Shown here: one piece after another, positions 4,063-7,000 of the stretch
Layout of the letters: every line of letters starts with the position of its first letter
How positions within the stretch are numbered: position 1 is the stretch's first letter
From: Octopus vulgaris
Lineage: Eukaryota
Direction: 5' to 3'
Length of the DNA: 64,000 nt
Assembly (NCBI GenBank): GCA_951406725.2
Contig: OX597816.1
Span: forward strand, 8,060,001-8,124,000
Program-made: the position numbers

Positions 4063-7000
4063 GACGGATGTGATGTCGTCTCAGCTCCGAAGGTAATCAT
4101 TTATTTTGACTATTTATAGGCCAATTTTTGTGTAGATTTTTGCAAATAAGGTGTGTAAGGCAACCAACTTTCGTTTGAGTGCTTTTCTAAGGGAGGAATT
4201 CGCCCCTAGGGGCAGTTTCGACCCCATTTCATTTCTGTAATTTTATTCTCGACATTAGAAAATGTCTAGAAATTTTATTGTTGAACGCTGGTCGCGTTCT
4301 TTTATGGAACAACATTTTCCTAGTCTGGAAACGACAGAGAAAAAAGAACGTTCGCACGGAAAATGCAAACGTAAAATTCGGTGAGATGAACGCTGCAACC
4401 ACGTGCGTTAACAGCCCTGTCACCACCGCCACCACCACCACTAACAACAGCAACCACGAGACAACAACTGCTACCACCACCACCTCCACCACCACCACCA
4501 CCACCACTACCACGACCAACATAAATGATAAAAATAAAACTGAAACGAAAACTATTGACAAAAACAACAGCAACAACAAGGACAACAATAAAAATGAACT
4601 ATCTAATAGTGAAGATGTTAATACGAAAAAATCAACAACATCAGTAAATTTCGCAGACATTCTTCGCCAAAAGAAGGAAATTGTTACATTCACAAATGAA
4701 GAGCTCATAGAGACAAGAGCTCTCTTTACAACCCGTGGACAAGATTTGGTGCTGCATACACCTCAACATATAAAACAAGAAATTGAAAATAAGACAATTG
4801 TATATAAAATTATTAGAAAAACCAAAAAAACCAAATGAACAGATTACAAAAACTGATGTGGAGAAATGTTTAAAAAACATAATGAAAGAAAAAGAGTATA
4901 TAAACTGGGGTCCCCAGTTTAACACAGTAGTGGTCCGCTTCCCTAACCAGGAAGTGGCAAAAGCTCACTCTACTGAGTCTCTGGGAAATGATGAAATCAT
5001 CATGGTCCCTTATTATAAAAACCAGAGGGTGAGTAGAATTACTATCAGAAATGTACCCCCCGATATGCCGAACAAATGGATAACAGGGGCAATCTGTTAC
5101 CACTTGAAAAAGATCAATATTTTGGAAACAGCCGTGTACCTAAACGACAATTGGGGTGGAAAAACAGTAGTGGTGACCATCCAGATTGAGGGGGCCTCTA
5201 TCGAGAGCCTACCCGACAAGATATACTTGGAGAATGGGCAATGCCTATATGTTATGGCAGAAGGCAAAAAGCCTAGATGCTACAAATGTGGCAGCCCCGA
5301 ACATTTGATTGCCAAGTGCGATCTGGTACAGAAAAAACAAGAAAGAACAAATCAGAAAACAAATAAAATCCCTTTGTTGCCAACACCAACACCAACACAC
5401 TCAATTATGGAACAATGCCAAGAAAAACAACAAACCAGCAAACAAACCCCAACAACATCACCAAGAAAAACAGTACCAACACAATCACCGTTGACTTCAC
5501 AACCAATTAAACCTGTTGAATTAACAAAAAATAGACCCACGCCCACACCCAGGACGACAATTAAAAAGACAGAAAACACTGACGAGAAGACAAATGCTAC
5601 CCCTAACACCACAACAACACAAACACCGCACAAAACATCAACAATTTATACAAGCATACATAGTAATGCAAATGTTTTGCCTCTACCCCATACTGATACG
5701 TCGGAAGACGAAAGTTCGACGGAATGGCAAATAGCCACAGGGGGTAAAAGAAAAAGATCCAAAAAATCCACCAAACAAGGAATTAAAGCAGGGAGATATC
5801 TAACTCAGGACAACATCCCCCTAGACAATCAAAAAAGTAATGAACCCGTAAAACCACACACACAACTAACTGCAATAGACACAGACAATAAAGAATTAAT
5901 GGACTACATCAAATCTAACATGGTCGTCTGTGAAGACGACTTTAAGACAAACAATCATCCGCACACCACACCACCGAAACACATCAGAATTTTACACATA
6001 ACACAAGCACAACACCACATACTGAAAACATCATTTCCGAATGCGGTAGGCGGGTATCAACGATACCTGTCGAAAAAACTATACAAACACCTCATCAAAA
6101 ACGATACAAAAGAAGAAGAAGAAAAAAATGAAACTTTTAAAATGAGTAAGTGACCTCACTTCTTGCCTCTTGTCTCTTCTAATATAGTGTGTAAAACACA
6201 ATTTTCGTAAATGTCAAGTATGCTTAAATTAGGTTGTGTGAATGCGCGTGGCTTGGCGTCGGCTTGGAAGCAAGGTTACCTTCTAAACGACATCAAGTCA
6301 CTGGACATGGATATAGTAGCTATGACGGGAGCGGTCGTTAACAACCGCTGGTGGTACGCCCTGAAAATGGCAATAAAATCGGAATCAATTAGGTTTAGCA
6401 AGGAATTAGCGATAGAACGAAATAGAGTAGAGGGAGACTTAGTTAAGAAACTAGAAGAGGCACTTACCACTGGCAGCGCAACCAACGTGCTGGTTGCGAG
6501 GATGGCCCTCGACCAACACCTCAACGCCAAGCACGAAGGTTGCGTCGTCAGAGCTAAAATGCGTGCCTTAAGGAACGAAGGGATTGAAGCTGCGCGAGAG
6601 GCCCGGGTAGCGGAGGCGCAGCGTGGCAACAGATCAACCATTCGGTCTCTAATAGATCAACAGGGATGCAGTTTACTCGAACCCGAAAGGATGTGTGAGG
6701 CCTTTCAACAGCACTTTGCTCGACTGTTTGGTGCGAGTGGTGGGTCGGAACGAGGGATGGATTTCAGTGCCTACCTGACCGACCTGCCGCGGCTCTCAGC
6801 AAGAGAAGCGGAGTGTTGTGAACGTCCCATCACAGCCGCTGACGTGTGGGATGCGATGGCGGGCTGCGCGAGGGATAAGTCGCCTGGATTGGATGGTTTA
6901 CCCTACGAGCTGTATTGTCGAATGCCAGACTTGTTTGGCGACCTCTTGGCATCAGTCTACTGCAACTGGCAACAAAACGGGAGAATCCCCGGTTTCGTGA

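What the first reader, a model, noticed from the sequence alone, without database searches (positions are those of the whole stretch)
6211..6345. In-frame loss of nearly the whole APE endonuclease from ORF2
Seen: ORF2 begins like an APE domain (LGCVNARGL..DMDIVA) and at ~6322-6327 jumps, just before the expected catalytic Glu (xET motif), to linker sequence (TGAVVNNRWWYALK). The frame stays open for 893 aa. Inference: either a one-off deletion or a propagating EN-minus lineage that depends on trans-complementation or DNA breaks.
Basis: partly seen in the sequence, partly recalled or inferred. Interest (0 to 1): 0.75.

Follow-up and report, generated by a model that had tools for sequence, protein, structure and literature searches.

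The report
LINE copy missing its endonuclease domain
This is one copy of an L1-like jumping gene in a cephalopod-like genome that has lost the DNA-cutting part of its main protein through an in-frame deletion, which is most likely ordinary decay of a single copy.

Summary
ORF2 (6211-8892, +, 893 aa) starts with the first 35 or so residues of an APE endonuclease. At codon 38 (6322-6324) it jumps to the linker that precedes the reverse transcriptase. A profile of 29 full-length relatives matches ORF2 at positions 2-36 and 273-1125, so about 236 positions are missing. These include the Glu of the SET/QET motif and every later catalytic region. The N-terminal remnant is not a chance match: it scores 28.0 bits and 0 of 2000 shuffles reach that. 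The RT and the C-terminal zinc motif are well kept.

The copy carries other lesions. Its stop codon lies where all 7 aligned relatives have Trp, 22 codons before the ancestral stop. ORF1 appears split over two frames.

No other junction-bearing sequence was found in the window or in the protein collections. These collections hold nothing closer than 71% identity, so the lineage question was not really tested. The host genome and its reads could not be searched.

The best reading is a one-off internal deletion in a young, decaying L1-like LINE copy. A propagating endonuclease-less lineage is not excluded (about 0.1). Interest is low.

The parts
4063..4385 (+). Putative 5' UTR of the element, from the end of the (TCTA)n array to the first ATG of ORF1. 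The true 5' end is not defined.
   Evidence: Sequence read and array limits. There is no second full-length copy to fix the boundary, and no target-site duplication was found.
4386..6153 (+). ORF1, apparently split over two frames: 4386-4838 and 4774-6153. The overlap holds A5 and A7 runs. A CCHC knuckle lies at aa 168-183 of the second frame.
   Evidence: zf-CCHC E 0.0013, 19.2 bits, below the Pfam cut-off of 20.8; the first frame is open in 3 of 20000 shuffles, and the Met-less head of the second frame in 395 of 20000. The one database homologue is P0123, 34% identical.
6211..6321 (+). Remnant of the APE endonuclease: ORF2 codons 1-37. It keeps the N of the ..CVNARGL.. motif and ends just before the SET/QET Glu.
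6322..6324 (+). Junction codon ATG (Met38). It aligns both with the residue before SET on the 5' side and with the Leu before TG on the 3' side.
   Evidence: aa 38 is the end of domain 1 and the start of domain 2; the 5' relatives have I in 4, V in 1, T in 1 and A in 1 of 7; the 3' relatives have L in 7 of 7.
6325..7029 (+). Linker and N-terminal extension of the RT (TGAVVNNRWW...). It corresponds to profile positions 274 onward.
   Evidence: aa 140-638 align with residues 386-890 of human LINE-1 ORF2p.
7030..7782 (+). Reverse transcriptase domain. The YADD motif is present.
   Evidence: (RVT_1, aa 274-524) and the sequence.
8440..8607 (+). C-terminal zinc-binding motif (zf-RVT, CPRC...H...C).
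   Evidence: aa 744-799.
8890..8892 (+). Premature stop (TGA) at the position of a conserved Trp.
   Evidence: W in 7 of 7 other aligned sequences; read through with X, the profile match extends from position 1125 to 1141 and the score rises from 912.7 to 924.3 bits.
8893..8958 (+). Former last 21 codons of ORF2 plus the ancestral stop (TAA 8956-8958).
8959..9244 (+). 3' UTR with AATAAA at 9235-9240.
   Evidence: Sequence. The 3' end resembles that of the second copy.
9245..17986 (+). (ATCC)n array of 8.7 kb that starts 4 nt after the AATAAA. It is either the element's simple-repeat tail, greatly expanded, or the target microsatellite.
   Evidence: The second copy ends in (ATT)n instead.

Best explanation
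The locus 4063-9244 is one copy of an L1-like (L1/Tx1-type) non-LTR retrotransposon in a cephalopod-like genome. Its ORF2 has lost about 236 codons (roughly 0.7 kb) between the residue before the catalytic Glu of the APE endonuclease and the linker motif L-TG-x-x-x-NNRWW. The loss is in frame. The translated protein would be a reverse transcriptase with a 37-residue stub in place of the endonuclease, so it could not nick target DNA. I take this to be a one-off lesion of this copy. It arose either as a genomic deletion after insertion or as a jump of the reverse transcriptase along its template while this copy was being made. I do not take it as the mark of a propagating family. The long open frame only means that the copy is young and that the deletion length was a multiple of three. 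Shown: the domain loss, its exact place, the intact RT and zinc motif, and the premature stop. Inferred: the ORF1 frameshift, the single-copy status, and the way the deletion arose.
For: Domain loss and its borders. Family assignment: the best solved relatives are LINE-1 ORF2p chains (E 7.2e-46 to 3.7e-45) against R2 proteins at E 6.3e-21 or weaker. The closest proteins are P0003 (71% identity) and P0004 from Argonauta hians (64%). Full-length relatives of about 1143-1161 aa carry PF03372.

Other lesions in the same copy: a TGA where 7 of 7 relatives have Trp, with homology continuing behind it. ORF1 coding signal lies in two overlapping frames, with no ATG in the first 36 codons of the second frame.

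Youth of the copy: it keeps 92 of the 100 highly conserved columns it covers. That is similar to P0003 (98 of 104) and P0004 (78 of 83).

No sharer of the junction was found. The 18-mer occurs once in the window even with 3 mismatches allowed. There is no other APE-like stretch in the window. Among the 120 listed relatives none shows the same jump. Of the 123 hits to aa 1-130, 20 have a match that crosses residue 38 from before residue 33. I read 18 of these: 8 run on into a normal APE and 10 are linkers preceded by normal APE-end sequence.

Base rate: another relative, P0029, has its own, different in-frame APE deletion (profile 47-210). That is 1 of 120 database relatives, so such lesions recur independently.
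Against: The searches for a sharer had little power. The protein collections hold nothing closer than 71% identity to this ORF2. The short-protein search returned nothing at all. Sister copies from the same genome would therefore not have been seen. The only open DNA collection holds prokaryotes.

The RT part shows no excess of changes at conserved positions. That is also what a lineage still under selection would show.

The premature stop removes only 21 C-terminal residues and might be tolerated. The ORF1 frameshift sits in homopolymer runs and could be an assembly error.

No target-site duplication was found. That would fit endonuclease-independent insertion, but the 5' end is undefined and both flanks are microsatellites.
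Confidence: 0.72

Rival explanations
1. This is a propagating endonuclease-minus lineage. The deletion arose in a master copy. The RT-only ORF2p then spreads either by borrowing the nick made by intact relatives (trans-complementation) or by priming on existing DNA breaks (endonuclease-independent insertion).
For: The frame is open and the RT and zinc motif are well conserved. ORF2's own start codon and N-terminus are kept. No target-site duplication was detected. Endonuclease-independent L1 insertion is documented in the human genome (PMC1920257, abstract read). Internally deleted LINE derivatives that spread with the help of autonomous elements are known for R2 (PMC3414825, abstract read).
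Against: No second junction-bearing sequence was found anywhere that could be searched. This copy has a premature stop and probably a broken ORF1. From general knowledge (recalled, not tested here), the cis preference of LINE proteins makes trans rescue inefficient. The element has a complete 3' end with AATAAA and a tail. The documented endonuclease-independent insertions are described as structurally distinguishable from classical ones.
Confidence: 0.12
2. This is a spliced-RNA copy. A cryptic intron inside the APE region was removed from the element's transcript before reverse transcription. This would resemble the spliced integrated L1 copies described in human (recalled; not looked up here).
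For: The loss is clean, internal and in frame, and both ends of the element are intact.
Against: In 6 of 7 closer relatives the residues after the 5' break are Ser or Thr followed by Glu. This gives no obvious GT at the start of the lost piece. In 7 of 7 relatives the lost piece would end within or just before a Leu codon, not an evident AG. Both points are inferred from proteins that are only 33-54% identical to the window's sequence in those alignments, not from the parent DNA.
Confidence: 0.06
3. This is a chimera. The 5' part (5' UTR, ORF1 and the first 37 codons of ORF2) and the 3' part come from two different elements, joined by recombination or by a template switch between two RNAs.
For: G+C is 0.30-0.47 across ORF1 and 0.51-0.61 across the RT. 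Template jumps by LINE reverse transcriptases are documented (PMC3414825, abstract).
Against: The rise in G+C is gradual between about 6200 and 6500, with no step at 6322. Both sides of the junction find their best matches in the same set of cephalopod-like fragments.
Confidence: 0.06
4. This is an assembly artefact. The deletion is not in the organism's DNA.
For: None directly. The ORF1 frameshift in A-runs suggests that homopolymer errors are possible in this assembly.
Against: The two joined sequences are unique and share at most a few bases. Nothing there would make an assembler collapse them.
Confidence: 0.03

Closest known systems
LINE-1-type ORF2 protein (APE endonuclease + RT + C-terminal Cys-rich motif), for example human LINE-1 ORF2p (PDB 8c8j, 8sxt)
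   Same: RT core and flanking regions align: aa 140-638 with residues 386-890, E about 1e-45. There is a C-terminal zinc motif, an upstream ORF1 and a 57-nt spacer. Relatives of about 1150 aa carry the APE domain.
   Different: Only the first 35 or so residues of the APE domain remain. ORF1 is a different type with a CCHC knuckle. The tail is a tetranucleotide array rather than poly(A). The finer clade (L1 proper or Tx1-like) was not tested. My impression that it is Tx1-like is recalled, not shown.
Endonuclease-independent L1 insertion (Sen et al. 2007, PMC1920257; abstract read)
   Same: It shows that an L1 RT can integrate without its own nick. An EN-less ORF2p would depend on this route.
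   Different: Those events come from elements whose endonuclease is intact or experimentally mutated. They are recognised by the structure of the insertion site. Here the endonuclease gene itself is deleted, and the insertion-site structure could not be read.
SIDEs, short internally deleted R2 and R2/R1 elements (Eickbush and Eickbush 2012, PMC3414825; abstract read)
   Same: They are LINE derivatives made by an internal deletion that keep both ends of the element.
   Different: SIDEs have lost essentially all coding sequence and are shown to be multi-copy. This copy keeps a full RT and is known from one locus only.
P0029, a 989-aa relative (39% identity) from another genome
   Same: It has an in-frame internal loss within the APE domain, with the N-terminus and the RT retained.
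   Different: The break points differ (profile 47-210). It keeps the QET Glu and the end of the APE domain. It is an independent event.

Membership tests
L1-like (L1/Tx1-type) non-LTR retrotransposon | Reverse transcriptase domain of the LINE type | tested here: met
   RVT_1 E 2.4e-30. The best solved relatives are LINE-1 ORF2p at E about 1e-45, against R2 at 6.3e-21.
L1-like (L1/Tx1-type) non-LTR retrotransposon | N-terminal APE (Exo_endo_phos) endonuclease in ORF2 | tested here: not met
   No PF03372 match at E<=1. Only profile positions 2-36 remain and 37-272 are absent. Relatives have the domain, so this is a defective member and not another family.
L1-like (L1/Tx1-type) non-LTR retrotransposon | C-terminal Cys-rich or zinc motif in ORF2 | tested here: met
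   zf-RVT E 2.7e-06, 28.4 bits against a cut-off of 27.5.
L1-like (L1/Tx1-type) non-LTR retrotransposon | Upstream ORF1 encoding a nucleic-acid-binding protein | tested here: inconclusive
   The zf-CCHC match is below the Pfam cut-off (19.2 against 20.8 bits). There is one homologue only. The ORF is probably frameshifted.
L1-like (L1/Tx1-type) non-LTR retrotransposon | Target-site duplication and A-rich or simple-repeat 3' tail | tested here: inconclusive
   AATAAA followed by (ATCC)n is present. No duplication beyond chance 8-10-mers was found.
Propagating endonuclease-minus LINE lineage | Same deletion junction at several loci with different flanks | not testable with these tools
   No eukaryotic genome or read collection was open. 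The junction occurs once in the window. The protein collections show no sharer but hold nothing closer than 71% identity. The 4 prokaryotic 18-mer matches are chance: about 17 are expected and none shows LINE similarity.
Propagating endonuclease-minus LINE lineage | Purifying selection on the RT after the deletion | not testable with these tools
   This needs sister copies. With one copy, only conservation relative to distant relatives can be seen: 92 of 100 columns.
Spliced integrated LINE copy | Lost segment bounded by GT...AG in the parent element | not testable with these tools
   No DNA of an intact close paralogue was available. Protein-level relatives give no hint of GT/AG.

The most novel reading that the evidence does not exclude
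The junction marks a family of RT-only L1-like elements in a cephalopod. These would multiply without an endonuclease of their own, by using nicks made by intact relatives or by priming at DNA breaks or within the very abundant microsatellite arrays. Both related copies in this window end directly in such arrays.
Probability: 0.1. Interest if true: 0.55.

Novelty: new member of a known kind. Interest (0 to 1): 0.15.

Why it matters
As a single defective copy it matters little. Internally deleted LINE copies are common. A relative in another genome shows an independent deletion of the same domain.

It would matter only if the junction proved to be multi-copy. A natural LINE lineage that keeps its RT under selection after losing its endonuclease would be a rare in-vivo case. 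It would bear on two questions: how strict cis preference is, and how much endonuclease-independent insertion contributes in a germ line.

Tried and rejected
1. I searched for the junction 18-mer in the only open DNA collection, which holds prokaryotic genomes. It gave 4 exact matches against about 17 expected by chance, and none showed LINE similarity. This is no test of the hypothesis.
2. I searched the protein collections for a junction sharer. The whole ORF2 was used, aa 1-130 against all representatives, and aa 1-100 against short proteins (55 candidates, none significant). No sharer was found, but nothing from the host genome appears to be in these sets. Of the 20 hits that cross residue 38, I did not read P0195. 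P0026 was judged, where it is full length with an intact APE.
3. I looked in the window for an intact paralogue to align the break points at DNA level. The second copy (35085-36576, -) starts only at RT residue 394. The third remnant (62205-63086) has ORF1 only. The question of microhomology versus splice sites stays open.
4. I looked for a target-site duplication and found only chance-level 8- and 10-mers.
5. I looked for a composition step at the junction as a sign of a chimera. The rise in G+C is gradual and there is no step.
6. I used ORF1 homologues to settle the ORF1 start. Only one fragmentary homologue exists. The similarity of the third remnant upstream of the first Met was too weak to count.
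7. CpG observed/expected is 1.06 in ORF2, 0.90 in copy 2 and 1.04 in the whole window. It gives no age signal.
8. Literature: three full-text searches gave context on endonuclease-independent insertion and on internally deleted LINEs. They turned up nothing on an endonuclease-less LINE lineage in cephalopods. I did not search specifically for that phrase, so I make no claim that it is not in print.

Full report
**What is there**

The stretch 6211-8892 on the + strand is one open frame of 893 codons. It begins at an ATG directly after a TAA. Pfam finds a LINE-type reverse transcriptase (RVT_1, aa 274-524, E 2.4e-30) and the C-terminal zinc motif zf-RVT (aa 744-799, E 2.7e-06). It finds no endonuclease/exonuclease/phosphatase domain even at E<=1.

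A second frame lies upstream (4774-6153) and carries a weak CCHC knuckle (E 0.0013, below the Pfam cut-off). It ends 57 nt before the ORF2 start. This is the ORF1/ORF2 layout of a LINE.

The solved structures closest in sequence are LINE-1 ORF2p chains (E 7.2e-46 to 3.7e-45). Residues 140-638 align with 386-890 of the 1275-residue protein. R2 proteins follow at E 6.3e-21 or weaker.

In the large protein collection 660 of 8000 scored candidates match. The closest is P0003 (912 aa, 71% identity). Next is P0004, named by its source as a hypothetical protein of Argonauta hians (64%). A long series of proteins of about 1143-1161 aa at 39-44% identity carry PF03372 together with RVT_1. The element is therefore an L1-like LINE of a cephalopod-like genome. 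I did not test whether it belongs to the Tx1 branch; that impression is recalled.

**Checking the observation**

I built a profile from the 29 relatives of 1120-1175 aa among the 120 listed. It matches the window's ORF2 in two pieces. Residues 4-38 match profile positions 2-36 (8.1 bits). Residues 38-892 match positions 273-1125 (912.7 bits).

The short piece is not chance. Against a profile of the relatives' N-termini alone it scores 28.0 bits, and 0 of 2000 shuffles of the same 40 residues reach that (best 8.0). In a six-frame scan of the whole window the only significant match is nt 6220-6324 (15.3 bits, E 5e-06). The one other row scored -3.2 bits.

Profile positions 37-272 are missing, about 236 residues. 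These hold 26 of the 126 columns that are identical in at least 28 of the 29 relatives.

Closer relatives fix the borders.
- **5' side.** Seven short proteins with this family's own N-terminus read ...SLDLDVVA-I-SETR..., where the window reads ...SLDMDIVA-M-TGAVV. The residue at Met38 is I in 4 of 7, and V, T and A once each.
- **3' side.** Seven proteins with the family's linker read ...R-x-L-TG-x-I-x-NNRWW. L stands at the place of Met38 in 7 of 7, and TG follows in 6 of 7.

The motif lost is SET in this family rather than QET. About 35 linker residues behind the APE domain (the YWKLN stretch) are lost as well. Met38 could be read as a hybrid of an Ile-type and a Leu-type codon, which would allow at most a few bases of microhomology. 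That is inference from proteins that are only 33-54% identical to the window's sequence in those alignments.

**State of the rest of the copy**

The RT part is well kept. The ORF holds the majority residue at 92 of the 100 highly conserved columns that it covers. P0003 holds 98 of 104, P0004 78 of 83 and P0006 51 of 55. The YADD box and the CPRC...H...C motif are present.

Two further lesions argue against an element in working order.
- **Premature stop.** The TGA that ends the frame (8890-8892) stands where 7 of 7 other aligned sequences have Trp. Read through with X, the profile match continues to position 1141. The score rises from 912.7 to 924.3 bits, and the frame closes at TAA 8956-8958, where the relatives end. 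The ORF therefore stops 22 codons early.
- **ORF1 split.** ORF1 seems split over two frames. The frame from ATG 4386 to 4838 is open in only 3 of 20000 shuffles (61 of 20000 for its non-repetitive last 70 codons). The first 36 codons of the 4774-6153 frame contain no ATG and are open in 395 of 20000 shuffles. The 65-nt overlap holds A5 and A7 runs. A one-base change of frame there is the simplest reading, and it could also be a homopolymer error of the assembly. Only one ORF1 homologue exists in the collection (P0123, 34% identity, a fragment). It does not reach the disputed region.

**Is the junction shared?**

No other APE-like sequence is present there.

The window holds two other related remnants.
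- A 5'-truncated, frameshifted copy lies at 35085-36576 (-). It is 52-60% identical and starts at RT residue 394.
- An ORF1-only remnant lies at 62205-63086.

Neither covers the break.

Among the 120 listed relatives, none has the same jump. One, P0029 (989 aa, 39% identity), has a different in-frame APE deletion at profile 47-210.

A full scan of 1.84 billion representative proteins with residues 1-130 gave 123 hits. The best was 65% identical. Twenty of them have a match that starts before residue 33 and crosses residue 38. I read 18 of these. Eight are N-termini that run on into a normal APE domain, and 10 are linkers preceded by normal APE-end sequence. Of the other two, P0026 is a full-length protein with APE, and P0195 was not read.

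A word-index search of short proteins with residues 1-100 found nothing significant among 55 candidates.

These negatives are weak. Nothing closer than 71% identity to this ORF2 is in the collections, so sister copies from the same genome would not have been seen.

The only open DNA collection holds prokaryotes. Its 4 exact 18-mer matches (about 17 expected by chance) show no LINE similarity. The host assembly, its reads, and the metagenome and viral collections could not be searched.

**How it most likely came about and works**

The protein encoded here would be an RT with a 37-residue stub where the endonuclease should be. It lacks the Glu of SET and all later catalytic segments, so it cannot nick DNA (shown by the domain analysis). 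That it would still reverse transcribe is inferred.

A deletion of arbitrary length is in frame one time in three. The open frame needs no selection if the copy is young. Given the premature stop, the probable ORF1 break, the independent deletion in P0029 and the lack of any sharer, I favour a one-off lesion (0.72). It would be either a genomic deletion after insertion or a jump of the RT along its template while this copy was made.

A propagating EN-minus lineage stays possible (0.12). It would use trans-supplied nicks or existing breaks, as documented for L1 in the human genome (PMC1920257, abstract read). It would be analogous to internally deleted R2 derivatives (PMC3414825, abstract read).

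The remaining rivals are less likely.
- **Splicing of the transcript (0.06).** This cannot be tested without the parent DNA. The protein-level neighbours give no hint of GT...AG.
- **A chimera of two elements (0.06).** The only support is the G+C difference between ORF1 (0.30-0.47) and the RT (0.51-0.61). The rise is gradual, without a step at the junction.
- **An assembly artefact (0.03).** This is unlikely because the joined sequences are unique.

**Borders of the element**

Upstream, a (TCTA)n array ends at 4062. Downstream, AATAAA (9235-9240) is followed after 4 nt by an 8.7-kb (ATCC)n array at 9245-17986. The second copy ends in a similar ...AATAAAG... followed by (ATT)n. The family therefore seems to end in variable simple repeats. 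No target-site duplication was found, and the 5' end is not defined.

**Verdict**

The feature is a defective member of a known kind of element. Interest is low unless the junction proves to be multi-copy.

Noticed in passing
window 9245-17986 (and 17985-18089): An 8.7-kb (ATCC)n array, about 2180 units with blocks of GTCC variants, starts 4 nt after the element's AATAAA. It is followed by (ATGA)n. It could be a hugely expanded LINE tail or the microsatellite into which the element inserted.
   Followed up: partly
window 34750-36576 (-): A second, related LINE copy (52-60% protein identity). It is 5'-truncated at RT residue 394, where it abuts an (AC)n run, and it is frameshifted. It ends ...AATAAAG... 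followed by (ATT)n. The tail repeat differs from that of the first copy.
   Followed up: partly
window 62205-63086 (+): A third LINE remnant. Its ORF1-like sequence is 35% identical to ORF1 residues 46-119 and carries a CCHC knuckle. It is frameshifted, and no ORF2 follows before the window ends.
   Followed up: partly
window 8890-8958 (+): ORF2 ends at a TGA where all 7 aligned relatives have Trp. Homology continues for 21 more codons to TAA 8956-8958.
   Followed up: yes
window 4774-4838 (+): This is the overlap of the two ORF1 frames and holds A5 and A7 runs. There is a probable one-base frame change, which may be real or a homopolymer error of the assembly.
   Followed up: partly
window 26801-27379 (+): An open frame of 192 aa looks by eye like a piece of a mariner/Tc1-type transposase. 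It was not run against any library.
   Followed up: no
window 60941-61491: A tandem repeat with a 184-bp unit, 3 copies, 91% matches.
   Followed up: no
whole window: About 24% of the window is tandem arrays (35 merged arrays, 15598 bases). Many are tetranucleotide arrays, such as (ATGT)n at 39074-40585 and (ATAC)n at 48312-48940.
   Followed up: partly
protein P0029 (not in the window): A 39%-identical relative from another genome has its own in-frame deletion inside the APE domain (profile 47-210). It retains the QET motif and the RT.
   Followed up: partly
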